Source: Eledone cirrhosa (Eukaryota). Taken from it: 64,000 bases of DNA. Under the pieces are notes generated by a model. It did no database searches, was not told the origin of the DNA, and saw nothing but the letters and a program-made list of their open reading frames with translations. Location of the stretch: the NCBI GenBank assembly GCA_964016885.1, contig OZ024743.1:8060001-8124000 (forward strand), written 5' to 3'. This document shows, in pieces, positions 1,441-63,679 of the stretch. Every line of letters starts with the position of its first letter. Position 1 is the stretch's first letter. Position numbers and translations under genes: made by a program.

Positions 1441-1615
1441 TATAGCAATATATACTGTATAATAGCACTTTTCACCACTTATGTAAAATTAATATTTATG
1501 TTCTCAATAGAATTTTTTCATATATATATATGAAAAAATTCTATTGAGAACATAAATATACAGTATATATTGCTATTTCATTAATTGTAATATATATACA
1601 ATTATATATATATAT

Positions 1616-2055
1616 TTCGTTTCCGAATTTGTTTAGGAAGATTCTTTATCTGAAAACTTTGTGTTGAAACCGATATTGTTATGCTTTGGGAGGGTCATGT
1701 TGCCAATAAGGAACACACGCACCAGTTGCTTTCACTTCAATTTATTATAAATTAAATTTATAAATTTAGGAATTTATAAATTTCTGGTTGGTACACACAC
1801 AAAAACAAGATGGCGTAGGACAGAACAAAAGAGATGCACAAAAACAAAGAAAAGAATCCCCAGTCGCTGAAGAGGTCACAGAATGTGTGACGAAAGAAGT
1901 TTGACAATATATGAACAATCGTCTGGTTGTGAAACCAACCAACCGGAAATTTATAAATTCCTAAATTTATAAATTTAGTTTATAATAAATTGAAGTGAAA
2001 CAACTGGTGCGTGTGTTTCTTGTTTCTTATTGGCAACATGACCCTCCCAAAGCAT

Positions 2056-21625: not shown

Positions 21626-22065
21626 AAATAGCAGCAAAATCACACCTTACTATTTTAATTAAAGGATACACTGGATAATATAGTTCCTGGCGTATAAAAT
21701 ACTGGGTAGTCACGGTTGGAATACGAGCAGTCATACGGCTAAGCAACAACTAATGTGCTTATATTTATTAACTATACACAATACATGAGCAGTTGTATTT
21801 CAGTTTTTATTCAATAAATATAAAAGTTTACACTTGAAAAGATAATTATAAATATTTATCGACCGTTATTAACATGCAGGTGCTTTGTTGTCTAAACAGT
21901 TCTGATATAAACACATTTGAATGGAACACAGTGTCATGTGACCTCCTTCTAACCCTCTCCGAAACAATAAACCTCTGTAAGGAGTGTTCACAATATACTT
22001 TGTTGGGAGTCGTATCAGTGTAAATAAAAGAGAAGGGGGAGTAACTACCAATGTGAGGAGGCAGG

Positions 22066-24066
22066 ATGTTTGTTAACCTTTGCTTGGAGAAGTGGCACCA
22101 CCACCACAGATGTATAATAAAAATGGAGTCCAATGAAATGGAAGAAAGCGGCCAGTATAACAACACACCAACTACCTGTACGGTAAGCAGTCCTTTGCTT
22201 TTTAGAAATGGCAACACTCACTCAACTAATAAGCGAGAAGAAAACAAAGCCACTCCTTACAATTTATCGAATAGCTGTAAGATTTCTAGTCGAACCAAAC
22301 ACGAACTGCTTTGTGATGGAAGTAATTCTTATTCTCAATGCGACTCAGAAATCCGATCTGAATCTCGTCGTTGTCCTTCTGAAAGTCTTCGATCGTCATC
22401 TGCTGTTCACCACCAAGCATCACATTCTGAAGTACTTCTGCATTCTACCGGCAAAAGTAGCAGTAGTAATAGTAATTCGAAGCACCACAGCCACCGTAAT
22501 TATCACCAACCCCGTCACCATCATAGCCATCGTAAACACTATAGTCGTTTGAAAAATAATCGTAGCCCTAACTACCAAACATCTCAGTTCGATGAAAACA
22601 TTCAAATGACAACTTGCCACGGACGACGATCGGCAGATAACTGCCTGTATAACAAAAGTAGTCGGAATCATCACAATCATACGATCACCAATAATACAAG
22701 TTGCAGTAATAGTAGTTGTGGTATTGGCAGCAACTGCATGAAGGTTTCTCCGAAATTTTCTTCCTCAGTCTCTATACATCGGTCTACCTCCAATAACAAT
22801 CGAACAAACTCCAACTTGTCTCCACCACCTTCTTCGGACAGGATATTGCCACCTACCTCTCCATCTCCCCCTCCAGTGACTGAAGAGCCCGTTCACAGTT
22901 TGTTTCCTGAGTTACTGGTAATGATATTCTGCTATTTAGATGTGAAGAACAAGGGTCGTGTGGCCCAAGTATGTAGTCGCTGGCGGGACGCTGCTTATTC
23001 TCGCACTGTGTGGCGTGGAGTTGAAGCTAAAATCCACCTTCGTCGTTCAAACCCTTCTTTATTCCGTAGTCTTGCCAAACGTGGAATCCGCAGAATTCAA
23101 ATACTAAGCTTAAAACGAAGCCTTCGTGATGTTGTAGCTGGTATTCCAGACCTGGAAAGTCTTAACCTGAGTGGATGTTACAGTATCACAGATGCTGGTT
23201 TAGGCCAAGCTCTTCTCTACCGGTTGCCTTTGGTTAGTGAACTCAATCTCAGTCTGTGCAAGCAGACAACAGACTACAGCCTGAGCCGGATTGCTATGTA
23301 TCTTAAAAATTTAAAAGTATTACATTTAGGTGGTTGTTCTCTCATAACGAATGCAGGTTTGTTTGTTATATCCTATGGACTAGTCAACTTGCAATCACTT
23401 GATTTGAGGAGCTGTCGTTATCTTTCAGATCAAGGGATTGCTTACTTGGCAGGACTTGGTAATGATATAACTACGCAGGGTAACCTAGCTCTTGAACATC
23501 TTTGTTTACAGGACTGTCAGAAACTTACGGATCAGTCACTACACTATATGAGTCTTGGGTTGAAAAATTTGCTTAAAGTGAACCTTAGTTTTTGTGGTGG
23601 TGTCACTGATACAGGATTACAATATTTGGCCAAAATGCCCAGCTTGCGTGAAATTAACCTTGCCAGTTGTGATTTAGTGACTGATACGGGACTTGCACAT
23701 TTAGCACGTGGTGGTTCACATATTACATCTTTAGATGTGAGCTTTTGTGATAAAATCGGAGATGGAGGCTTGAGCCGTCTAGCTGAAGGACTCTTTAACC
23801 TTGAATGTCTCAGTTTGAGTGCATGTAACATCAGTGACAATGGTATTGGCTATATCACACAGAATATGCATGGTTTAACAACATTAAATATTGGTCAGTG
23901 TCATCGTATTACTGATCGTGGACTGAATCTAATTGCAGACAATCTGAAAAAACTCTCCTGTATGGACCTCTATGGTTGCACACAAATATCTGCAAAAGGT
24001 CTTGAACGGATTATGCAACTGCCAAGTTTATCAAGTTTAAATTTGGGTTTGTGGCACAAAAGGTGA
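22066..24066 (+). CDS. FBXL14: F-box/leucine-rich repeat protein 14 (Partner of paired-like), single uninterrupted ORF with long low-complexity N-terminus
   Basis: 666-aa ORF. F-box 'HSLFPELLVMIFCYLDVKNKGRVAQVCSRWRDAAY' is followed by 'VWRGVEAKIHLRRSNPSLFRSL', cysteine-containing LRRs (LNLSGC, LNLSLCKQ, LQDCQKLTD, NLSFCGGVTD) and the ending 'LNLGLW', all typical of FBXL14/Ppa. True start uncertain (22066 or 22123). Confidence 0.95.
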   Translation: MFVNLCLEKWHHHHRCIIKMESNEMEESGQYNNTPTTCTVSSPLLFRNGNTHSTNKREENKATPYNLSNSCKISSRTKHELLCDGSNSYSQCDSEIRSESRRCPSESLRSSSAVHHQASHSEVLLHSTGKSSSSNSNSKHHSHRNYHQPRHHHSHRKHYSRLKNNRSPNYQTSQFDENIQMTTCHGRRSADNCLYNKSSRNHHNHTITNNTSCSNSSCGIGSNCMKVSPKFSSSVSIHRSTSNNNRTNSNLSPPPSSDRILPPTSPSPPPVTEEPVHSLFPELLVMIFCYLDVKNKGRVAQVCSRWRDAAYSRTVWRGVEAKIHLRRSNPSLFRSLAKRGIRRIQILSLKRSLRDVVAGIPDLESLNLSGCYSITDAGLGQALLYRLPLVSELNLSLCKQTTDYSLSRIAMYLKNLKVLHLGGCSLITNAGLFVISYGLVNLQSLDLRSCRYLSDQGIAYLAGLGNDITTQGNLALEHLCLQDCQKLTDQSLHYMSLGLKNLLKVNLSFCGGVTDTGLQYLAKMPSLREINLASCDLVTDTGLAHLARGGSHITSLDVSFCDKIGDGGLSRLAEGLFNLECLSLSACNISDNGIGYITQNMHGLTTLNIGQCHRITDRGLNLIADNLKKLSCMDLYGCTQISAKGLERIMQLPSLSSLNLGLWHKR

Positions 24067-29669: not shown

Positions 29670-31446
29670 CCAGAGGTTCTCAAACATTTGGGGCCACGTA
29701 ATACCCTCAATGCCCCAACCCCTATTTCCAGAGAGACCTGCCTACATGCAAATTGTAAATAATATGTAATAAATGAAATTGTTAATTTATATGGAGGCAC
29801 ATGGCTTAGTGGTTAGAGCATTGGCCTTGCAATCGAAAGGTTGTGAGTTCAATTCTTAGGCTGGGTGATGTGTTGTTTCCTTGAGCAAGACACTTTATTT
29901 CACATTGCTCCAGTTTACTCAGCTGTAGAAATGAGATGATAGTGACTGGGGTCCATATCATTCCACTGTAAAGTGGTCATGGAGGTGCCACGGCAAAAAA
30001 GCACCCAGCACTCACTGTAAATGAGGTTGGTGTTAGGAAGGGCATCCAGCTGTAAAAATCAAGCCAGAATCAGTTCCCGTCCCACCCTTGCAAGCAGGGA
30101 AAAGCGGACGTAAAATGAAATGAAATGAAATAATATACTATGTATAAATAAATATATATTTTTATTTCACTGCGCAGAGTGTAGGAAAGGCGAAGGTAGA
30201 AATTCCATTTTGTGTCCCAAATGCAAAGTTTGGGTGCATAAAAGATGTAGTGGGATCACAGGTAAGCTAACTAAGAACAGATTTTACATGTGGCCGGTGT
30301 TCTGGGGAAATAAGTAGCAGCAAGTGCCCACAAAATACTAGCTCTTTCAACTGCGCAGAGGGTTCTATAGAAATAGTGGACAGCTTCCGTTACCTGGGTG
30401 ACAATATCAGCAGTGGGGGAGGGTGCTCTGAAAGTACAGTAGCTAGAGTCAGAACTGGGTGGAAAAAGTTCAGAGAGCTTATACCACTATTAGCCGCTAA
30501 AGGGTTCTCCCTAAAAATGAAAGGCAGGCTGTACGATGCCTGCATACGAACAGCAATGTTGCATGGCAGTGAGACCTGGGCATTGTGTGCAGAGGATATA
30601 CGCAGACTAGAGAGAAACGAAGCTTGCATGCTCTGCTGGATGTGTAATAGTAATATACGTGAACGACAAAGCATAAACGAACTTAGGAAAAAATTAGAAA
30701 TAAGAGGGATCAGATGTTGTTTACTAGAGAGAAGGCTACGTTGGTATGGTCACGTGATGCGCATGAAGGACGATAGCTGTATAACAAAGTGCAGGGCAAT
30801 AAAGATAGACGGTAGCCACTGAATAGGCAGACCCAGAAAAACCTGGGACGAGCTGATAAACTCCGACCTCACACACTTACACCTCACCAAGACAATGTCA
30901 CTGGACCGAGACCTTTGGCGGTACTCAGTAATAGAGAAGACCCGCCTTACCTAAATACAAAGTAAAACCTACTACAGTCAGTAGGCATCTCTAACAAAAT
31001 ACACCCCCACCCCATCCACACCGCCCCCTTCTATGTAAAGTTATGTTGGTGCCACACCATCCAGGCCGAAACAAATGAGATCGTGTAGGTGTCACGACAA
31101 AAAAAAACACAGTCCACGCTGTAAATGTGGCCGTGGAGGCAACACGGTAAAAACCTCCCAGACCCACACTGTAAATGTGGTTGGTGTTAGGAAGGGCATC
31201 CAACTGTAGAAAACCTGCCAGACAGTCCTATGCGAGCAAGACAATCACTCTTGCCTCAAGTGGGAATACCCCCGTCCAAACCCATGCAAGCGTGGAACAC
31301 GGACGTTAAACGTTCATGATGATGATGATATATAATATGATTCATTTAATATTTAATGTACTATTATATCATCTTTATCGACCCCAGTGACCTCCGGAAC
31401 CTTCTCAATGCCCCCAGGGGGCAGTAGCACCCACATTGAAAACCTG
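29670..31446. mobile_element. hAT-like MITE split by nested SINEs and an RTE fragment
   Basis: CAGAGGTTCTCAA ... TTGAAAACCTG ends; flanks ATCTAACC / ATCTAATC. Confidence 0.55.
30179..31329 (+). mobile_element. RTE LINE 3' fragment, same family as 33826-36060
   Basis: ORF 30376-30822 nearly identical to the C-terminus of the 553-aa ORF; same 3' UTR; (GAT)n tail. Confidence 0.92.
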
Positions 31447-32569
31447 ATCTAATCCATAGCAGCATAGAATGCAGACATAAAAATGATGATATGGTATGTT
31501 GCTCTAAATAAGCCTTGATTAAACAGACTCATGAGTAAAAGAATTCCAATCAGAGCAATCCTGTCATTTTACCAAGCATAGTGCACCCAGGACCCCATTA
31601 TACATTCTTTCATTTTTTTATGACTGGTACTACCAAGAGCAGTGCCCCAGCATGGCCTCAGCCAGATAGTTGGAACAGTTAAAAGAGTATATATTATGGA
31701 TGAATTATTTTGTGAATAGTAGTGTCATTGGTTTTAGGTTTCATATAGCCAATCATGGGCTCACTGTAATTGTAATGGCAAGAGAGATAAGGAAATACCT
31801 GAGATGGATAGAATATATGTCATTAGGTATTTATGGTCAAGTGCATTAGTTTATTGGTTTTCTCACTGATGTGTACATTTTTTTAAAACATACAGAATGG
31901 GCAATTTAAACTAATTGTTCTCAAAATAAATTTGTTCTCAAAATTTTCAAAATTTAAATATGCTTGCCCAACACTACAATATATCTTCTGATTTCATCAG
32001 TGCATTATTTCATTCTCTGTCCTATTTAGTTTAGATTAAACAGAGCCTTCTATAATAATTTTCCACCCTCATAATTACAATTGGGAAAATGTTTTGTTTG
32101 AATTTTTCCACTGAAACAAAAAGTCTGCTTGAAAACTTTTAGTTTGTCACTAAGTATCCATTGTTTGTAGTTCTCATAGAATTTAGATAGATGAACCTCT
32201 GTTGATTTTTGCATCTTGTGGTTCCAGGTTTGATTCCACTGAGACTAGTCAGCGAAAGAGTAGAACATATATGATTTCCTGGAGACTTGATCTGGTTTGC
32301 AGTGGAGTGGACTTCACTAAGGTCCCAAAGGCCAAGAGGTAGTGAACTACTTTAGAAAAGTTACTGTCTTCCTGCACAATTTACAACTATTCAATTTAAC
32401 TCGAATTATGGAATAAAATACTTATCCTAAGTGTCATGTGGTAGGATAAAACCTTGAACTATGAAATTACATGGTTCTCTAGTAAACTATGTAAAATATT
32501 TCCTTGCATTTCAAGGTTTTTAACCATTTTGATACCCAAAATCACCTCTGATTCTATGAAACGAAACAG

Positions 32570-33010
32570 CCCCTCTTCTTCTTTGCCCACTTATTCCTGA
32601 GAGGGTCATGGGGCAGAGTCATCAAACACTACTTCCAGCAGGTCCTGTCAAGCAACCATCTCCAACTGATCTGGCTGAATCCCCAAGTGAGACCAGCCAA
32701 GCTCATGGATATTATCCAACCATCTTGCCTGGGGTCTACTGTTGGTTGGTTTTTGCCCATAATATCTGTCCAGTGATTCTTTCCTGAGACATTCTAACCA
32801 CATGTCCATCATATTGGAGCTGTGATCTCTCAATTTGGAGAAGTAGCAGCTCTATCTGGAGTGACTCTGACCTCCGAACTACGCACTCTACTGAGTAACA
32901 TTACTCCAAAGACCCTTCGAAGGAACCCCATTTCAGCTACTTGTATTCGTGATTGTATTTTTTCGGTCATTATCCAAGATTCATGACCATAGGTAAGGGT
33001 TGGCACGATA
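32570..33010 (-). mobile_element. Decayed RTE-like LINE 3' end of another family (relatives at about 41025-41425 - and 41530-41760 +)
   Basis: Minus-strand PTLTYGHESWIMTEKIQSRIQVAEMGFLRRV; tail shared with 41025-41240. Confidence 0.7.
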
Positions 33011-33825
33011 CTGAATTAAGATAGTATTTGTAACATGAGGTTCTAATGTCAAATTATATTAGAAGATTTTAATTTAAATATGACTTTTGTTGTAAAAGCC
33101 AATAAAACAACCCATATTTAAATTTAAATCTTCCAATATATTTGATATAAGAATCTTATATTACAAATACTATCTTAATGAAATAATTATTTTAGTAAAT
33201 AGCTCCAGATTCTCCATTAATGAATTCAAATACAGTGTAATTTATTATAAATATGACATTGAAAGGGTTAATAGGTTCCCATTAGCTATAGTTTGGCGAT
33301 AAAGGAGAATCAGGCATGAACAATAAAGGCAGCTATATTATTATGCTATGTTATAGTCTACATTTCTTGTGTGATACATGCTTTGTATGACATATCCTGG
33401 AATGTTGCAGTGTGAGTTAACCCTTTAGCATTTCATTACTCTATATTTACTATTATATTGTTGTAGTGCACTTACACAATAATTTATTATTATGTTTTCA
33501 TGGTAAAGGCTTTACCTCACTTAATATCGAATCTATGAGATTTTGATATTTATTTTGGGAACCATACCTTAACATCAGTATGAGTGGCTGGTTACAGCAG
33601 GTTTGAAAAGGAGGAGGTGAGAGAATCCTTGCCGGATATGGCCAGTTTAAAAGCTAAAGGGTGAAGTAAACTTGTCTGACCAGCTTCTCAGTTTATTCTT
33701 CATTGGACAACTTGATCTTTCAGATGTATTATACTGAAATGCATGTAGCTCTTGCATCCTAAGAGTTATTTAACATTTACACATAGCTAATTGAAGGATA
33801 TATGTCATTGTTTTGTAGAAGTGGT

Positions 33826-36060
33826 CATCATCATCATCATCATCAGGTTTAGCGTCCGTGTTCCACGCTTGCATGGGTTTGGACGGGGGTTTTCCCACTT
33901 GAGGCAAGAGTGGTTGTCTTGCTCGCATAGGACTGTCTGGCGGGTTTTCTACAGTTGGATGCCCTTCCTAACACCAACCACATTTACAGTGTGGGGCTGG
34001 GAGGTTTTTACCGTGTTGCCTACACGGCCACATTACAGCGTGGACTGTCTGGCGGGTTTTCTACAGCTGGATGCCCTTCCTAACACCAACCACATTTACA
34101 GTGTGGGGCTGGGAGGTTTTTACCGTGTTGCCTACACGGCCACATTTACAGCGTGGACTGTGTGTTTTTTTGTCATGACACCTACACGATCTCATTTGTT
34201 TCGGCCTGGATGTTGTGGGACCAACATAACTGTACATTGAAAGGGGCGGTGTGGATGGGGTGGAGGTGGTGGGACGGGGGGGGGGGGGGGTGTTTTGACA
34301 GAGATGCCTACTGACTGTAGTAGGTTTTTACTTTGTATTTAGGTAAGGCGGGTCTTCTCTATTACTGAGTACCGCCAAAGGTCTCGGTCCAGTGACATTG
34401 TCTTGGAGAGGTGTAAGCGTGTGAGGTCGGAATTTATCACCTCGTCCCATGTTTTTCTGGGCCTGCCTACTCCGTGGCTACCGTCTATCTTTATTGCCCT
34501 GCACTTTGTTATACAGCTGTCGTCTTTCATGCGCATCACGTGACCGTACCAACGTAGCCTTCTCTCGAGTAAACAACATCTGATCCCTCTTATTTCTAAT
34601 TTTTTCCTTAGTTCGTTTATGCTTTGCCATTCACGTATATTACTATTGCACATCCAGCGGAGCATGCAAGCTTCGTTCCTCTCTAGTCTGCGTATATCCT
34701 CTGCACACAATGCCCAGGTCTCGCTGCCATGCAGCATTGCTGTTCGTATGCAGGCATCGTATAACCTGCCTTTCATTTTTAGGGAGAACCCTCTAGCGGC
34801 TAATAGTGGTATAAGCTCTCTGAACTTTTTCCATCCAGTTCTGACTCTAGCTACTGTACTTTCAGAGCACCCTCCCCCACTGCTGATTTTGTCACCCAGG
34901 TAACGGAAGCTGTCCACTATTTCTATAGAACCCTCTGCGCAGTTGAAGGAGCTAGTATTTTGTGGGCACTTGCTGCTACTTATTGCACCAGAGCACCGGC
35001 CACATGTAAAATCTATGTTCTTAGTTAGCTTACCTGTGATCCCACTACATCTTTTATGCACCCATACTTTGCATTTGGGACATAAAATGGAGTTTCTACC
35101 TACGCCTTTCCTACACACTGAGCATGGCCATTTCCCAGATGGGACTGCCGCCATATTTTCTTTCCTACAAACTAGAACTTTTGTCTTAGCCAGGTTAATT
35201 TTAAGGCCTTTTGATTCTAGGCCGTGCTTCCATGTTTGGAATTTCTTCTCTAGTTCGGTCATTGATTCAGCTATGAGCGTTAGATCATCTGCGTATAGGA
35301 GTTCCCATGGGCAGCCGGTCTTGAACTCCTCTGTTATAGCCTGAAGGGCAATAATAAATAGTAGGGGGCTAAGAACAGAGCCCTGATGGACACCAACTTT
35401 TACGCTAAACTCTTCACTATATTCGTTGTTAATTCTAACCTTACTGACTGTTTCTTTATACATGGCTTGTATAGCTCTCACAAGCCATTCGTCAACACCT
35501 AGTTTTCTAAGAGACCACCAGATAATGGAACGGGGGACTCTGTCGAAGGCTTTCTCCAAGTCGACGAAAGCTAAGTATAGGGGTTTACTTTTAGCTAGGT
35601 ACTTCTCCTGTAGTTGTCGTACAATGAAAAGAGCGACTGTGGTACTTTTGCCTGACACAAACCCAAACTGCATTTCATCTAGATCAATTCTCTCTCTGAT
35701 TAGTTGCGCTATTACTTTTTCCGTGACCTTCATGACCTGGTCGATTAATTTAATGCCTCTATAGTTACTCCTATCTAGGGCATCTCCTTTTCCCTTATAG
35801 CAATTAACGATGATGCTGCTACGCCAGTCCTTCGGAACAACCCCATTCTGTATGACTTGGTTAACTATCCGGGTGACCATGGTGTGTCCCACCGAACCAG
35901 ATGCCTTCAGCATTTCAGCAACTATTTCCGAAGGACCAGCCGCCTTACCCGTCTTCATATCTTTGATTGCCTTGCTTATTGTACTACCCTGGACTAACAC
36001 TGCTGGTCCCTCTATTGGGTCGATGTGGGGGAGACTGTCTTTCTCCCATTTGTTCTCCTG
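33826..36060 (-). mobile_element. RTE-clade LINE, 5'-truncated, with 3' UTR and (GAT)n tail
   Basis: Open 553-aa RT ORF 34339-36000 (AFVDLEKAFDRV, GVHQGSVLSPLLF, LLYADD, internal Cys/His finger, RRLRWYGHV, GRPRKTW); (CAT)n at 33826-33845; possible GTGGT target duplication. Confidence 0.95.
34339..36000 (-). CDS. RTE LINE reverse transcriptase, lacking the N-terminal endonuclease
   Basis: Uninterrupted ORF with all RT motifs. Confidence 0.85.
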   Translation of the reverse strand: MLVQGSTISKAIKDMKTGKAAGPSEIVAEMLKASGSVGHTMVTRIVNQVIQNGVVPKDWRSSIIVNCYKGKGDALDRSNYRGIKLIDQVMKVTEKVIAQLIRERIDLDEMQFGFVSGKSTTVALFIVRQLQEKYLAKSKPLYLAFVDLEKAFDRVPRSIIWWSLRKLGVDEWLVRAIQAMYKETVSKVRINNEYSEEFSVKVGVHQGSVLSPLLFIIALQAITEEFKTGCPWELLYADDLTLIAESMTELEKKFQTWKHGLESKGLKINLAKTKVLVCRKENMAAVPSGKWPCSVCRKGVGRNSILCPKCKVWVHKRCSGITGKLTKNIDFTCGRCSGAISSSKCPQNTSSFNCAEGSIEIVDSFRYLGDKISSGGGCSESTVARVRTGWKKFRELIPLLAARGFSLKMKGRLYDACIRTAMLHGSETWALCAEDIRRLERNEACMLRWMCNSNIREWQSINELRKKLEIRGIRCCLLERRLRWYGHVMRMKDDSCITKCRAIKIDGSHGVGRPRKTWDEVINSDLTRLHLSKTMSLDRDLWRYSVIEKTRLT

Positions 36061-36116
36061 TGGTACACACTTATATTTATTTCAGAAGACTACTGGTAAG
36101 TGAATTGATATATATA

Positions 36117-37002
36117 CGAGGTGTGTCAGAAAAGTTCCAGGACTGATGTCACAAAAGATTTATTTCAAGCCCAAACTTCACACTAAGAGTTTTCTCCTTC
36201 AAAGTAATCCCCCCGGAGTCTAATGCACTTTTCCATCCTTTTCTGTCACGCTTGCATGCACTCCTGGAAGGATTCTTCTGGGATCCTCCACAGTTCCGTC
36301 GTCACGGCCTTTTTGATGTCATCCACGACTTCAAAACGGGTCCCCTCCGGGTCGTACTCGAAGATCCATGACTCATCACCGGTAATGGCTGTCCCCAATA
36401 AGTATGGTTCGGTTTCAAGACGCTCGAGGATGTCCTGGCACACTTGCATGCGTCGACCCTTCTGGTCATCATTCAGCAGTTTTGGCACCATCTTCGCGCA
36501 GACTTTCCGCATGTCCAAATCTTCAGTGAGAATCTTCCAGATGCTATCCTGATTCATGCCCAGCTCCTTTGCCATCAGTCGAACAGTCAGCCGACGATCG
36601 CTACGCACCATCTGCCTGACGCGCTCAACGTTGACCTCAGTCCTGGTTGTTGAGGGCCTTCTGCTCCTGAGGTCATCTTGCACCACTCAAAAACACGTGA
36701 GCGTGACATCGTCTCATCTCCATACACTTGCTGCAGCAATCCCAGTGCTTCTGATGGAGTTTTCCCCAACCGTACCAGAAACTTCAAGTTTGTTCGTTGC
36801 TCTGTGCTCATTGCTTGACGACCTGAAACAGAGAACATGTATATAAAATTATGAAGAAAAAGGTTTGATTGCTGCAGAGAGCTAAGATTACAGTTACATA
36901 CTCCAGGGGGATTACTTTGAAGGAGAAAACTCTTGGTGTGAAGTTTGGGTTTGAAATAAATCTTTTGTGACATCAGTCCTAGAACTTTTCTGACACACCT
37001 TG
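36117..37002 (-). mobile_element. Internally deleted mariner element with about 103-bp inverted ends
   Basis: TA on both sides; transposase pieces 'EQRTNLKFLVRLGK', 'KVCAKMVPKLL', 'ITGDESWIFEYDPE', 'GDYFEG'; second and third catalytic Asp regions deleted. Confidence 0.93.
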
Positions 37003-37772
37003 TATATATATATATATATATATATAATCATCATCATCGTTTGACGTTTATCTTCCACGCTAGCATGGGTTTAGACAGTATATATATATATATATAGTGA
37101 TAGAGTGAAGAATAACATGGTCAGCTGCACAAAAAGGATTTTATTTACAGTATTAACAATTGTTTCATGGACCAGATGAGTCTAAAGGCCGCTGATCACT
37201 CGAACCTCTAACTGGATTACCTAAAAAGATAACTTGTTATCCCATATATATATACAAGTCTTTCAATAATTTATGTTGCTTTTCTGGTGGTCATGTTGAT
37301 TGATGAATAGTAGTGAATATCTGTTTTCATATTTCAACTAAAGTCCCCAGCATCATTTACTCATGCTCATAGAGCGTCACATAATTCTAAGGATTCATAT
37401 TTGTGTATGAAGTCAATATTAACCATGTTTATTTTAAAGTGTGTATATTTAACTAAATAACTTCCATCATAATTTTCAACAACTGAGAAATTTAGTTATA
37501 TTACTAAGTACATACAATGTCTTCATTATTTGACAATCATAGGCAATCTTTCATTTGAAATATGATAATGAAAGGGTTAAAGAACTAACAAATTACTTGA
37601 CTAGGCTATGTTAAATTACATAGTTGATTCTGTTAAACCCTAGTTCAGCTCTTATTCAGTTGATGTATGATCAAAAGCATTCCAAGCTTGATAATTCCAC
37701 CTTTTCTCTGGCCATTTCAACATTATCCTAAATACCATTCTTTTTCATTATTTTATGACTGCGATGTGATAT

Positions 37773-39254
37773 AAGGAGAGGAGCAATTATAGGGGTATAA
37801 AACTGATGGATCAGGTTATGAAAATGGCAGAAAGGATATTAGCACAACTAATTAGAGAAAGGGTCAAACTAGATGAGATGCAGTTTGGTTTTGTGCCTGG
37901 CAAGAGTACAACAGATGCCCTCTTCTTGATGAGACAATTGCAAGAGAGGTTCTTAGAGAAAAATAAGCCACTATACTTAGCCTTTGTTGACCTAGAGAAG
38001 GTCTTTGATAGGGTACCCCGATCTGTCATCTGGTGGTCCCTAAGGAAACTTGGTGTTGAGGAAGGGCCTGTGAGGACAGTGCAAACTTTGTACAGAGATA
38101 CTCTCAGTAAAGTCAGGGTAAGAATGGAGTTTAGTGAGGAATTCCAGATACAATTAGGAGTACATCAAGGTTTGGTCCTCAGCCCGCTCTTGTTCATTAT
38201 AGTCCTCCAAGCCATAACAGAGGAGTTTAAGACTGGCTGTCCATGGGAACTTCTCTATGCTGACGATCTGGTTCTTATAGCAGAATCAGTAGAGGAGCTA
38301 GAGAATAAATTCTGGCTATGGAAACAGCAGTTGGAAGCAAGAGGACTGAGAGTGAACCTAGCTAAGACAAAAGTGTTGAGTAGAAAAGAGGACAAAACTC
38401 TGATTCCGTCAGGGAAATGGCCATGTTCGATATGCAGAAAAGGAACTGGCATAAATTCTATAAAATGCACACAATGCAGATCCTGGGTACACAAGAGATG
38501 TAGTGGGATAGCAGGCAAACTAACAGGTAGGGAGAAATATGTATGCAGTAGATGTACAGGGAAATTAGACAGTAGAAGTCGCATTGATAGACACATTTTT
38601 CAAATGCAGGAGGGTGCTATAGAAGTGGTGGATAGCTTCCGGTACCTAGGAGATCAGATTAGCATGGGAGGGGGGGTGTTCCGAGGCCATAGTATCAAGA
38701 ATAAGGACGGGTTGGAAGAAGTTTAGGGAGCTGCTTCCTCTGCTGACGAAGAAGGGTTTCTCCCTGCGTACGAAAGGCCGATTATATGATGCCTGTGTGA
38801 GGAGCGCGATGCTGCATGGTAGTGAGACATGGGCAGCAACTGCAGAGGATATGCAATGGCTGGAGAGAAATGAGGCAAGCATGCTCCATTGGATGTGCAG
38901 TGTAAATGTGCGTGAACGACACAGCATGAATGTGTTGAGAGAGAAACTGTGTCTGAGAGGGATAGAATGCAGTGTACGGGAGAGGAGACTGAGGTGGTAT
39001 GGACATGTGATGCGCATGGAGGATGACCGATGGGTGAAGAAGTGCCAGGAAATGCCTGTTGAAGGAAGACGTGGTAGAGGTAGACCACGAAAAACATGGG
39101 CGGGAGTGGTGAGAACAGACCTCAGATCGTTGAAGCTCACGGTGGAGATGACGAAGGACCGTGACGAGTGGAGAGATGCTGTGCTGAATAAGACCCGTCC
39201 CACTCTTGCAAGCAGGGAAGAGCGGACGTAAAATGATGATGATGATGATGATGA
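37773..39254 (+). mobile_element. RTE LINE, second subfamily, 5'-truncated and frameshifted
   Basis: ORFs 37806-38726 and 38797-39231 with RT motifs; frameshift in the G-run near 38670; (GAT)n tail directly after the stop. Confidence 0.93.
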
Positions 39255-39325
39255 TATATACATATTCATGAATGGTTATATATGTATAGACGCACATACA
39301 CACACACACATATATATATATATAT

Positions 39326-39813
39326 TACTACAGTCAGTAGGCACCTCTATCAAAACACACCCCCGTCCCACCACCTCCACCCCACCCACACCGCCCCTTT
39401 CAATGTAAAGTTATGTTGGTCCCACAACATCCAGGCCGAAACAAATGAGATCGTGTAGGTGTCACGACAAAAAACACACAGTCCACGCTGTAAATGTGGC
39501 CGTGTAGGCAACACGGTAAAAACCTCCCAGCCCCACACTGTAAATGTGGTTGGTGTTAGGAAGGGCATCCAGCTGTAGAAAACCAGCCAGACAGTCCACG
39601 CTGTAATGTGGCCGTGTAGGCAACACGGTAAAAACCTCCCAGCCCCACACTGTAAATGTGGTTGGTGTTAGGAAGGGCATCCAACTGTAGAAAACCCGCC
39701 AGACAGTCCTATGCGAGCAAGACAACCACTCTTGCCTCAAGTGGGAAAACCCCCGTCCAAACCCATGCAAGCGTGGAACACGGACGCTAAACCTGATGAT
39801 GATGATGATGATG
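39326..39813 (+). mobile_element. RTE LINE 3' UTR-only copy (family of 33826-36060)
   Basis: Near-identical reverse complement of 33826-34320, including the internal tandem duplication. Confidence 0.9.
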
Positions 39814-43343: not shown

Positions 43344-44031
43344 AAATAATGGAGTTTAAAAAGTTGGAAAAATCCATAATATTCTACGAGGTACTTCTCG
43401 TTGAGGATTAGGAGAGATGTATATTGTCTCTCCTCCTGTCCATTCTAATCGTGGATTTTATTTACAGTAATAACAACAATAATAAAAAAAGAAAAGGAAA
43501 CAAATGAAAAAATAGGAAAATAAGAGAAAGAAAAACGGGAAAGGGAGGGGATGGCAAAGGAGAGGATGATTGGCTTTGGGCCTAGGGCGAGGAGGCAGAA
43601 GGGCTGCGGCCAATGGCCAGCGACTGTGGAGAAGAGTGAATGAACAAGGAGTCCTAATACCGTGGACTACAGGACGATGTCTTACAGACCTTCACTTTGC
43701 GGATGGCATTCAATTGTTTATTTTCCTTTGTTCAATGATCTCCCAGGCTTCTCATGTGCATTGGTTACCCAAGCCAGTTATTTAAATGCATCTCTTCCTC
43801 TTTAATCTGGTAAAGTTTTCTTATCAAAATATTTCGCCTGCCTTTCACAGTCTGACAGGAATTTCAATTCTAAAGTATCCGTCTTTGGACAAGTCAGAGT
43901 GTTCTGCACACAACCAATAACATTTTTCTTTTCCAGGTTATACGCACAGTCCATTCTCTTAATATATATGTATATATATAAATATATATGTATATATATA
44001 TATATATATATATAGATATAGATAGGTAAAT

Positions 44032-44405
44032 ATACACGGGTGTGTATGATTGTGTATAGAAGATTATATTAATAAGAGGAATTCCAACTTTGTCTGATTT
44101 ACTCGTTTTATTTACAATCCTTTAAAATATATATAATAGTATTATAATGAAATAGTATGATAGAATATTAAATTCTAAGTGTTAATTGAACAAGTACTTT
44201 CATGCTTTCGCAATCAACTGAAAATTGCAAACTCGACTGTCACCACATATCATGAACCTGAAGATTGCGAAAGCATGAAAGTACTTGTTCAATTAACACT
44301 TAGAATTTAATATTCTATCATACTATTTCATTATAATACCATTATATATATTTTAAAGGATTGTAAATAAAACGAGTAAATCAGACAAAGTTGGAATTCC
44401 TCTTA

Positions 44406-44411
<6 letters not shown>
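44032..44411 (+). mobile_element. Fold-back insertion with about 150-bp near-perfect arms in (TA)n
   Basis: Arms about 44066-44215 / 44263-44411, 47-nt spacer; hammerhead spans spacer and right arm. Confidence 0.8.
44253..44291 (+). ncRNA. Minimal type I hammerhead ribozyme motif
   Basis: ugaac CUGAAGA u ugc-GAAA-gca u GAAA guac UU guuca: 5-bp stem I, GNRA-capped stem II, palindromic AGUACU stem III. Confidence 0.75.
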
Positions 44412-44458
<47 letters not shown>

Positions 44459-55490: not shown

Positions 55491-55751
55491 CGTGTATCCC
55501 GGGTTCAATCGGAGGTTTATGTGTGCACATATATATATATATATATAGTTATACTTGGGGAGGGTCATATTTGTGTAATATTGCCAGAATTAATAAGAGA
55601 ACACACTCATTGTTTGGTTGGTTTTCGCTTTTCGCTTCTGTGTCTTTCATATCGGTAATCTAACTTACTCGGTCCTCAATGTTGCCATTGACTGACCGAC
55701 GGTCAAAAATAATACAGATACAATATAGACACAAACACATATATATAGTTT

Positions 55752-55793
55752 ATCATAAATCTTTCGTTGCATATCTGCAACATCGTCAGTGGT
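55752..55793 (-). ncRNA. Minimal type I hammerhead ribozyme motif in the PLE 3' region
   Basis: Minus strand: acca CUGACGA u guugca-gaua-ugcaac GAAA gauu UA ugau. Intact core, 6-bp stem II, one mismatch in stem I. Confidence 0.7.
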
Positions 55794-56032
55794 GCTATAT
55801 TTTCCTCCTGTTGTATTGTATGTCTACGCCATTTTTATTCAGTCTGTCTATATATTTATTTATTTATTTGCTTGTTTGTTTATTTTATTTTGTCTTCTTT
55901 GCGCATGCGTTTGCGTGTGTGTATAGTGTTATGTTTGCTGTGTGATGGGTGACTAGTGTGTGTTTATGTGCTTGTTGTTATTGTGCTTGTGTATGTATTT
56001 ATTTATTTATTTATTTTATTTTATTTACTTAT

Positions 56033-57390
56033 TTATACTTCTCTTAGGTCAGTGTTGTTTGTTTGGGTGTTGTTGTTATTCCATTCATTCTTTCTGTTTA
56101 GTCTTGGTCTTCTAATTTCTATTTCACTGACCTCTCTGATTTGCCTATCTGCTGGGTCATTTCTATGTTTAGATATTATTCTAATTTCTATGTTGTCTAT
56201 GTTACCGTCATGTTGTTGTCTAGCATGTTCGTATAGTACTGACCCGTTTTTTCGTCCTTTTAGTTCCCCCCAGTGTTGGTCTATCCTTTCACCTATGCTA
56301 AGAGCTGTCTCACCTATGTATGTTGTTGTCATGTTTCTGCAAGTACCCTCTGTACATCTTATGCTATAGACTACGTTTCTAGTTTTACAGTTTATCCGGG
56401 GGTTCACCTTACATATGATACATTTCCTATTGGTACAGTGGGTTTTCTTAAAAGGGTAGGTTTTGCTGATCAGGGATTTTATGGTGGTTCCTGGCTTTTC
56501 TACCACCTTTATTTTTAAGTGGGTCTTTCTCAGGCCTTTCTACACTGGTTAGCTAATTTCCCTCCAGGGGTAGCGTCCACAAACATGACACTCTGGTATC
56601 TCTGGTTGTCGTACCATGAGGTGGTTTTCCCTATCTTATGTCTAACCCTATCTAAGCTATTCCATGATTTGCTACTGTATAATGGGCAAATTCCTTTCAT
56701 GTCCAGTTCTATGAGGTTCTTATACTTCTCCATGGCTCCTTCGTATACTCTGACTCTGTCTCTTTGGTTGTAGCCAGAGAACTGCATGCGGTTGATGAAG
56801 TGTTGGATGTGTCTTTCCATTTCTGTTGGGTCGCACATGCGGGACACATTCTTCATCACTCGTACCAAATCTGCGATCAGAATATTAAACTTAGCACTAC
56901 TGGACATTGCTGAGTTTTTGAGTATCAGGTATTTGGAGGCCATGGGTTTAGCATAGTGTGAGTGGAGAATTTGGGCTCTCTCGTCTATAGTGTTAATCCA
57001 GAGTTCTGTGTCTAATACAGGTAGTCTATTGTTAGCGTGTTTGGAAGGGAAGTCGATAGTTACAGTTATACTCTGGTGTATGGAATTAGCTATCTTCTGG
57101 ATGCTTTCCATCGTGCTACGTTCTAAATCAAACTTGTTAGTGCTCTCTAGTGGGGGTGTTCTTATAACTATATTGATATCGTCTACATAACGAGAGTACA
57201 TGATGAGGTCTATGGAACTCTCATTAAGGAGATCTTTAAGTCTCCTTTCCCACCATACCATGAAAAGGTTGGCAACATCACCAGCTATGCTGACGCCGAT
57301 GGCTGCTCCCTCATTTTGGGTGTAGATCTTCTCGTTGAACTTAAATATGTGGCCCTTTAGGGTAGTTTTGATACTAGCCCCTATTGCAAG
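56033..57390 (-). pseudogene. PLE reverse transcriptase + Cys-rich linker + GIY-YIG endonuclease, one frameshift near 56532
   Basis: RT motifs 'YTQNEGAAIGVSIAG', 'YSRYVDDI', 'LPVLDTEL'; linker 'HCTNRKCIIC..C'; endonuclease 'NVVYSIRC...YIGET...RIDQH...LYEHARQQH...LNRKNEW'. Restoring one base gives continuous ...CRKALRKTHLKIKVVEKPG. Confidence 0.9.
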
Positions 57391-57455
57391 TATAACAATA
57401 TTTGTTTCGACACACGATTTCATATAAAAAGCCTCGCAAAACTAATTCATCGCCG

Positions 57456-57522
<67 letters not shown>

Positions 57523-62695: not shown

Positions 62696-62702
<7 letters not shown>

Positions 62703-62904
62703 ATCAAAAGATGGTTAAAAGAGTTCCATGTATTTTATTATCCCATGATGATATTTGTTTTTGAAATGCGCATAATAAAATACATGGAACTCTTTTAACC
62801 ATCTTTTGATCTTATATTATTTATACTCCAGTCTTATAAACTGTTGAGTGCTACTTATCCGATATTTGCATTGCTTTATTGCGCTACAATAAAACTCACC
62901 TCCT

Positions 62905-62982: not shown

Positions 62983-63154
62983 AAGAGGGAGTATCAAGAT
63001 ACCAGGTGGACCATAACGCGCCAGAGTACTCAATACTTAAGGAAGTAGAGTGGGTAATAGGAAAAGATCCGAACTAGATTCGGATCTAGCTGTCGAAACG
63101 ACCGAAGCTCAACCGTCGGGGTCCTGACTCTTTCCCCATATATATATATATGTA

Positions 63155-63679
<525 letters not shown>

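What the first reader, a model, noticed from the sequence alone, without database searches (positions are those of the whole stretch)
55548..57456. A coding Penelope element explains the palindromes: same ends, same overhang, same ribozyme position
Seen: the PLE 3' end reads ...ATGACCCTCCCCAAGTATAAC then (TA)n, matching ...ATGACCCTCCCAAAGCATAAC at about 2038-2058 and the copy near 63495-63517. At its truncated 5' end, 57387-57456 is an inverted piece that continues past that terminus (AAGTATAACAATATTTGTTTCGACACACG...), homologous to the overhangs at 1616-1672 (reverse complement) and 63522-63574. The hammerhead lies about 150-250 nt from the end in both the long element and 1616-2060. Inference: the template extends about 60 nt beyond the point where the main copy ends, and a second, inverted synthesis event copies that extension. 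Short and long insertions are then products of one mechanism.
Basis: partly seen in the sequence, partly recalled or inferred. Interest (0 to 1): 0.75.

Follow-up and report, generated by a model that had tools for sequence, protein, structure and literature searches.

The report
Penelope retrotransposon with one-sided tail
This is a cut-short copy of an abundant Penelope-like jumping gene whose reversed end piece is the start of its own protein gene, a layout already known for this class; mirror-image insertions almost always carry this piece on exactly one arm, which likely means that both ends of the cut DNA start copying one RNA at two neighbouring points.

Summary
55548-57388 (-) is a 5'-truncated Penelope-like element (PLE). 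57387-57457 (+) is an inverted piece: 10 terminal bases plus a 61-base overhang. The overhang is codons 8-27 of the element's own 1209-aa ORF, from the next tandem unit: the published PLE 'tail' on an inverted copy.

- The overhang end is not fixed. Genome-wide, ends fall at 0 (6,885), +48/50 (1,998) and +61 (2,521).
- The tail is on the shorter arm in 17 and the longer arm in 11 of 30 pairs.
- The two short palindromes belong to sister families with their own coding relatives, not to this element.

Added here: in 80 sampled loci, 35 of 38 head-to-head pairs carry exactly one tail and none was scored with two (independence p=3e-8). This favours coupled priming of both target strands. Short arms pile up at a likely RNA start about 285 bases upstream. 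The endonuclease is Nematis-like, but the reverse transcriptase has an extra ~68 residues between motifs A and B.

Earlier notes of this scan reached the same readings on other DNA of this genome. Known architecture, modest mechanistic gain.

The parts
55548..57388 (-). 5'-truncated PLE body (family F1): 3' 1.84 kb of a ~4.1-kb unit
   Evidence: 92-98% identical to 39 other scored copies; intact 1209-aa tandem copies in L263, L264
56533..57387 (-). C-terminal half of RT (from ~aa 759: motif B, YVDD, thumb); one frameshift near 56535 separates it from the EN frame
   Evidence: tblastn 96% to intact ORF; Pfam RVT_1 E=0.0025, below cut-off
56033..56539 (-). Linker CX4CxxC zinc-finger motif and GIY-YIG-type endonuclease with CCHH motif, stop codon
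   Evidence: motifs read and compared by eye with PMC8557442 Fig S2; no Pfam hit
55827..55835 (-). AAAATGGCG motif where short arms pile up; likely just downstream of the RNA start
   Evidence: promoter role inferred (YY1-type motif recalled)
55740..55803 (-). Minimal type I hammerhead motif, predicted cut near 55756
   Evidence: stem I weak in this family; activity untested
55548..55568 (-). Terminus = first 7 codons of the ORF (MTLPKYN); proximal start site of reverse transcription (inferred)
   Evidence: 13,199 exact copies of a 24-mer
57387..57396 (+). Inverted 10-base piece of the terminus, 2-base microhomology with the body
57397..57457 (+). 61-base tail = ORF codons 8-27; distal start site at its end (inferred)
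   Evidence: tblastn aa 5-27, E=1.8e-8; 2,521 ends at this site
55529..55547 (.). (TA)n target, left; any target duplication is unreadable
57457..57518 (.). (TA)n target, right
1616..1792 (-). Palindrome A, left arm: 115 bases plus 62-base tail (sister family FA)
   Evidence: 92% to coding FA copy in L046
1793..2063 (+). Palindrome A, right arm: 266 bases, no tail, hammerhead at 1853-1917, starts ~17 bases before ATGGCG
63154..63348 (-). Palindrome B, tail-less arm (sister family FB)
   Evidence: 82-89% to L086, L098, L104
63360..63572 (+). Palindrome B, arm with 57-base tail, hammerhead damaged

Best explanation
This locus is one insertion of an endonuclease-bearing Penelope-like retrotransposon into a (TA)n run, made of a long tail-less copy joined head to head with a 71-base copy that carries the start of the element's own ORF, and it was likely built by both cut DNA strands priming reverse transcription on one RNA at two start points 48-61 bases apart. 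Shown: the tail is codons 8-27 of the next tandem unit; ends fall at a few discrete sites; inverted pairs carry one tail; either arm can be the longer. Inferred: the endonuclease cuts both strands of (TA)n; one 3' end primes at the proximal site (after codon 7), the other at a distal site (+48/50 or +61), with 2-5 bases of TA pairing fixing the register; both cDNAs stop early and are joined by microhomology. Priming at the front junction of an RNA that starts ~285 bases upstream would give the short palindromes; priming at the rear junction of a read-through tandem RNA would give ORF-bearing copies such as this one. Palindromes A and B are the same kind of product from sister families.
For: Read-through copies show terminus+tail = ORF start; intact tandem units with period ~4,145. 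End counts 6,885 / 1,998 / 2,521; read-through 358. A better 5-base TA match at +30 is used only 23 times, so position and not pairing alone picks the site. Census of 80 loci: 35 one-tail, 3 no-tail, 0 two-tail of 38 distinct pairs; 18.9/11.1/8.1 expected if independent, p=3e-8. Several inverted arms are tail fragments that stop before the proximal site (L196, L222, L229, L233, L252). Arm lengths: 83 of 129 are 300 or less, 14 at 270-299 versus 2 in the flanking 60 bases, p=1e-5. In vitro a PLE protein nicks and extends both strands, starts at two internal sites that bound the tail, and is predicted to be a dimer (PMC11167929).
Against: Arms that overlap by hundreds of bases need strand displacement or a second RNA. 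L254 joins an F1 arm to a sister-family arm (4-base overlap, both tail-less), so two RNAs can supply one junction. Two-tail pairs exist (L002, L076, L084; L188 by eye). PMC11167929 saw no strand difference in start site and no primer-template homology, and PMC8557442 ascribes the tail to endonuclease resolution. The extra-G (cap) test at the presumed RNA start was inconclusive: G 32, T 40, A 28 in the first 100 of 438 matches (counted by eye). The RNA start is inferred, not mapped.
Confidence: 0.6

Rival explanations
1. Two RNAs on an asymmetric protein dimer: each cut strand primes its own RNA, one subunit at the proximal and the other at the distal site.
For: Explains long overlapping arms without displacement; either arm may be longer; cross-family join in L254; predicted dimer (PMC11167929).
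Against: Needs built-in asymmetry to give 35 of 38 one-tail pairs; the L254 join is tail-less on both arms; tail-only arms that stop short of the proximal site fit blockage on a shared RNA better.
Confidence: 0.22
2. One synthesis with fold-back: a single cDNA self-primes (or an antisense template self-primes, as proposed in PMC3846280) and the endonuclease resolves the hairpin, removing the tail from one side (PMC8557442).
For: Gives one tail per pair naturally; short fold-backs are seen at some 5' junctions (L192, L207, L209, L220); L208 is a perfect 69/69 hairpin; the Penelope endonuclease recognises the tail (cited in PMC11167929).
Against: Simple fold-back makes the tail-bearing arm the longer one, but it is shorter in 17 of 30 pairs; here the tail-less arm holds 1.8 kb that the tail arm lacks.
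Confidence: 0.12
3. One reading: a fixed main end, then a second inverted event that copies a fixed overhang, with this coding element as the source of the window's palindromes.
For: Fits this locus, L016 and L043; termini are significantly alike.
Against: Two main overhang ends; tail on the long arm or on un-inverted copies; palindromes A and B match sister families.
Confidence: 0.04
4. Independent insertions side by side, or assembly artefact.
For: (TA)n runs attract repeated insertions; 4 outward-facing neighbours had a TA run between them.
Against: No TA run at this junction; thousands of junctions with different inversion points; one-tail rule.
Confidence: 0.02

Closest known systems
EN+ PLE insertion unit: inverted 5'-truncated copy plus one-sided 30-40 bp tail (PMC8557442 Fig 2; Pen2a_Av in PMC3846280)
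   Same: Partial tandems, head-to-head inverted copy, tail on one end, pLTR includes the first ORF codons and the tail extends them (12 to 22 aa in Pen2a_Av; 7 to 27 aa here), hammerhead in the pLTR, (TA)n targets.
   Different: Tail is 48-61 bases with two main ends; the one-tail rule is quantified here; N-rich segment lies in the N-terminal part of the ORF.
PAc (Poseidon, Anolis) internal initiation at two sites (PMC11167929)
   Same: Insertion ends inside the start of the ORF; the tail is the stretch between start sites; AT-rich targets.
   Different: Sites are 21 and 69-82 bases into the ORF rather than 111-118; all main ends overlap the (TA)n target by 2-5 bases, whereas PAc was reported to start without homology; different clade.
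Nematis clade (Nematis_Cr, _C4, _Pp as shown in PMC8557442 supplementary figures)
   Same: C-terminal GIY-YIG EN, short CX3-5CxxC linker with 7-8 residues to the next Cys, CCHH motif, VEKPG-like stretch before the linker.
   Different: RT motif A-to-B distance 128 aa versus about 60; DKSG motif; 1209-aa ORF. No tree with named references was built.
LINE-1 twin priming (recalled, not read)
   Same: Two target strands prime on one RNA, giving a 5' inversion joined by microhomology.
   Different: In L1 the second primer anneals anywhere upstream and the arms do not overlap; here both sites are fixed, adjacent, and the arms duplicate the terminus.

Membership tests
EN+ Penelope-like element | Single ORF with telomerase-related RT and GIY-YIG endonuclease | tested here: met
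   1209-aa ORF; model pLDDT 90, five best fold matches are telomerases; EN recognised by motif only, no Pfam hit
EN+ Penelope-like element | Tandem or partial-tandem units forming pLTRs | tested here: met
   L261-L265, L184, L203
EN+ Penelope-like element | Inverted 5'-truncated copy and one-sided tail | tested here: met
EN+ Penelope-like element | Hammerhead motif in the pLTR | tested here: met
   not found by Rfam; cleavage untested
Nematis clade | C-terminal EN with short CX2-5CxxC linker and CCHH motif | tested here: met
   against Fig S2 rows
Nematis clade | Canonical short RT3(A)-RT4(B) interval, no fingers insertion | tested here: not met
   128 aa here; 126-131 in 66 of 79 homologues, 60 in one, not scorable in 12; about 60 in the Fig S1 Nematis rows
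Nematis clade | Groups with Nematis in an RT phylogeny | not tested
Neptune clade | Long (~25 aa) spacer after the linker CxxC | tested here: not met
   7 residues
Penelope/Poseidon clade | No linker zinc finger | tested here: not met
   CX4CxxC present
Naiad/Chlamys | N-terminal endonuclease, no canonical hammerhead | tested here: not met
   EN is C-terminal, hammerhead present
Hydra clade | CxCX5C linker, CCHH absent, elements under 3 kb | tested here: not met
Non-autonomous element derived from this family (palindromes A, B) | Same family, fixed internal junction | tested here: not met
   A and B match sister families; spans of 26 pairs range 165-932

The most novel reading that the evidence does not exclude
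Penelope-like elements integrate by a coupled twin-priming step in which the two ends of one break are assigned to two different fixed start sites on the same RNA, so that the tail is the footprint of a dimeric reverse transcriptase; short hammerhead palindromes are run-off products from the front of the mRNA. This family also belongs to a widespread Nematis-like branch with a 68-residue fingers insertion that the papers read here do not describe.
Probability: 0.45. Interest if true: 0.55.

Novelty: new member of a known kind. Interest (0 to 1): 0.33.

Why it matters
How PLEs build their inverted ends and one-sided tails is still open: PMC8557442 asks for mechanistic work and PMC11167929 leaves the steps after priming unvalidated. 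A young family with over 13,000 ends and intact tandem copies gives a sharp prediction for the existing in vitro assay: the two strands of one target use different start sites. The architecture itself is known, so the gain is a quantitative rule, not a new system. It also means that many hammerhead palindromes in this genome are PLE by-products rather than a separate element class.

Tried and rejected
Rfam: no hammerhead at gathering or E-value thresholds. Pfam on three long ORFs: 0 of 3 hit. PDB by sequence: none. One search used a wrong frame; one search used a mis-registered structure string and is superseded. Fixed overhang end: rejected. Ends chosen by TA pairing alone: rejected. Palindromes as derivatives of this element: rejected. 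RNA-level constraint on the tail: synonymous identity between F1 and FA 13 of 20 versus 260 of 458, p=0.31 (first 15 codons 10 of 12, p=0.06), so protein and RNA constraint cannot be separated. Cap-derived G: inconclusive. Junction microhomology statistics were too noisy to use: overlap in 17 of 30, four of them inflated by cross-matching references. RNA folds around the start sites gave no shared structure in F1 and FA. Sequencing runs: no RNA holder listed. L173 looked like an intact ORF but is a chimera. Literature searches for twin priming with Penelope, for tail and mechanism since 2022 and for a fingers insertion listed nothing that states the one-tail coupling or the insertion; subscription papers such as Arkhipova 2006 were not searchable.

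Full report
Observation. On the minus strand the element ends at 55548 in (TA)n; at its truncated 5' end, 57387-57396 repeats the last 10 bases of the terminus in reverse and runs on for 61 bases to 57457, then (TA)n. Comparison with an intact copy shows a 2-base microhomology at the joint. Terminus plus overhang align among the element, palindrome A (1616-2063) and palindrome B (63154-63572) at 72-78%, scores 85-99 against shuffle maxima of 41-50. A hammerhead core lies 242 and 192 bases before the ends. Rfam misses it, but the fold is 91% paired in 20 copies with compensatory changes in stem II; these are inherited between families and count as few events.

What the element is. The genome (3.0 Gb) holds 39 further scored copies at 91-98% (40 of 4,604 candidates scored) and 13,199 exact copies of a terminal 24-mer. 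Intact units of about 4,145 bases lie in tandem and encode 1209-1210 aa (L263, L264). The window copy covers about aa 759-1209 with one frameshift near 56535. The model of RT plus endonuclease is confident (pLDDT 90) and its five best matches are telomerases. The nearest named protein is an Octopus vulgaris hypothetical protein at 67%. The linker CX4CxxC with 7 residues to the next cysteine, and the CCHH motif, match the Nematis rows of PMC8557442 Fig S2 and not Neptune, Poseidon, Naiad or Hydra. However, the RT motif A-to-B interval is 128 aa, and 126-131 in 66 of 79 homologues, against about 60 in canonical PLEs. I therefore call it Nematis-like, not a member; no tree with named references was built.

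What the overhang is. Read-through copies show that the last 21 bases of the element are the first seven codons of its ORF and the overhang is codons 8-27 (tblastn E=1.8e-8). It comes from the next unit of a tandem. This is the PLE tail: PMC8557442 describes an inverted 5'-truncated copy and a 30-40 bp tail often at one end only; PMC3846280 notes that pLTR and tail cover the first 12 and 22 codons of Pen2a_Av; PMC11167929 shows in vitro that the tail is the stretch between two internal start sites and that both target strands are cut and extended.

The main end is the commonest (6,885 ends into TA). The overhang end is not fixed: 1,998 ends at +48/50 and 2,521 at +61, with 358 read-throughs (exact patterns, lower bounds). 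Each site overlaps (TA)n by 2-5 bases, yet a 5-base match at +30 is used only 23 times. Inversion points vary. For a census I fetched 80 regions covering 81 of 87 clusters listed for the first 42 Mb of contig C1. The script found 46 outward-facing neighbours; 4 with a TA run between them were set aside (all one-tail). Of the other 42, 39 had one tail, 3 none and 0 two; counting the five tandem copies in L251 once gives 35, 3, 0 of 38, against 18.9, 11.1, 8.1 if arms chose independently (p=3e-8). By eye, 2 of the 3 no-tail pairs carry a tail, L188 looks two-tailed, L223 and L228 have intervening DNA, and the script missed several tail-only arms. Unpaired ends were 36 without and 19 with tail. 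Very short tail-less arms are hard to see, which undercounts no-tail pairs but not two-tail pairs. In 30 pairs chosen for clean junctions the tail arm was shorter in 17 and longer in 11 (four lengths inflated), so the tail does not mark the short or second arm.

The palindromes. A matches a coding sister family (L046; RT-EN 65% identical) and B has coding relatives at 52-58% (L086, L098, L104). Their pairs follow the same rule, 23 one-tail, 1 none, 2 two-tail of 26, but that sample is biased by tail-bearing queries and includes the window's own copy and one place twice. The shared ends are the conserved N-terminal codons (21 of 27 residues identical versus 64 of 157 further in); RNA-level constraint was not demonstrable.

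Short versus long. Some lengths are underestimates because of older subfamilies and later insertions. This fits run-off at an RNA start, so short palindromes and long copies would share the chemistry but use different junctions of the template. The cap-G test was inconclusive.

Mechanism. Best reading (0.6): both ends of a break in (TA)n prime on one RNA, one at each start site, and the two cDNAs are joined head to head. Tail-only arms that stop before the proximal site fit this. Against it: long overlapping arms need displacement, and L254 joins arms of two families, which keeps a two-RNA dimer model alive (0.22). Fold-back with endonuclease resolution (0.12) cannot give a tail-less arm that is longer than the tail arm, as here.

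Literature seen. PMC11167929: parts 1-2 of 4 of the text plus passages; supplements not read. PMC8557442: passages, two parts of the supplement and search rows. PMC3846280 and PMC13282606: passages. bioRxiv 10.64898/2026.07.22.740005: part 1 of 5. L1 twin priming, the YY1-type motif and dimeric minimal hammerheads are recalled. Searches listed no paper that states the one-tail coupling or the fingers insertion; Arkhipova 2006 and other subscription papers were out of reach.

Verdict. The one-tail rule is a useful, testable addition, and earlier notes of this scan reached like readings elsewhere in this genome. New member of a known kind; interest 0.33.

Noticed in passing
L173:1843-5211 (-): Open 1123-aa frame in which the first ~670 residues of this family are fused in frame to the C-terminal half of a Hydra-type PLE (CxCX5C linker).
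   Followed up: partly
L254:496-3298: An F1 arm is joined head to head, with a 4-base overlap, to a coding arm of sister family FA; both ends are tail-less.
   Followed up: partly
L251:501-2028; G000 C1 near 42,149,500-42,150,400: Short one-tail palindromes amplified as tandem arrays (five copies, period ~314).
   Followed up: no
window 55686-55706 and census loci: Arm ends cluster at -139 to -159, at a short self-complementary stretch of the pLTR.
   Followed up: no
window 1560-1603 and 2143-2186: Palindrome A sits in a TA run at the centre of a larger inverted repeat of another family.
   Followed up: no
window 62700-62820, 63085-63140, 44022-44456: Further TA-embedded palindromes unrelated to this family's termini.
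   Followed up: no
window 22057-24066 (+): 669-aa single-exon frame that reads like an F-box/leucine-rich-repeat gene (by eye).
   Followed up: no
window 30271-39800: Several fragments of an RTE-like LINE, including a 580-aa RT frame at 34339-36081 (-), and a mariner-like fragment near 36246-37027 (by eye).
   Followed up: no
L263 ORF aa ~245-410; L046: Asparagine-rich low-complexity segment in both sister families, reminiscent of the N-rich inserts in rotifer PLEs (PMC3846280).
   Followed up: no
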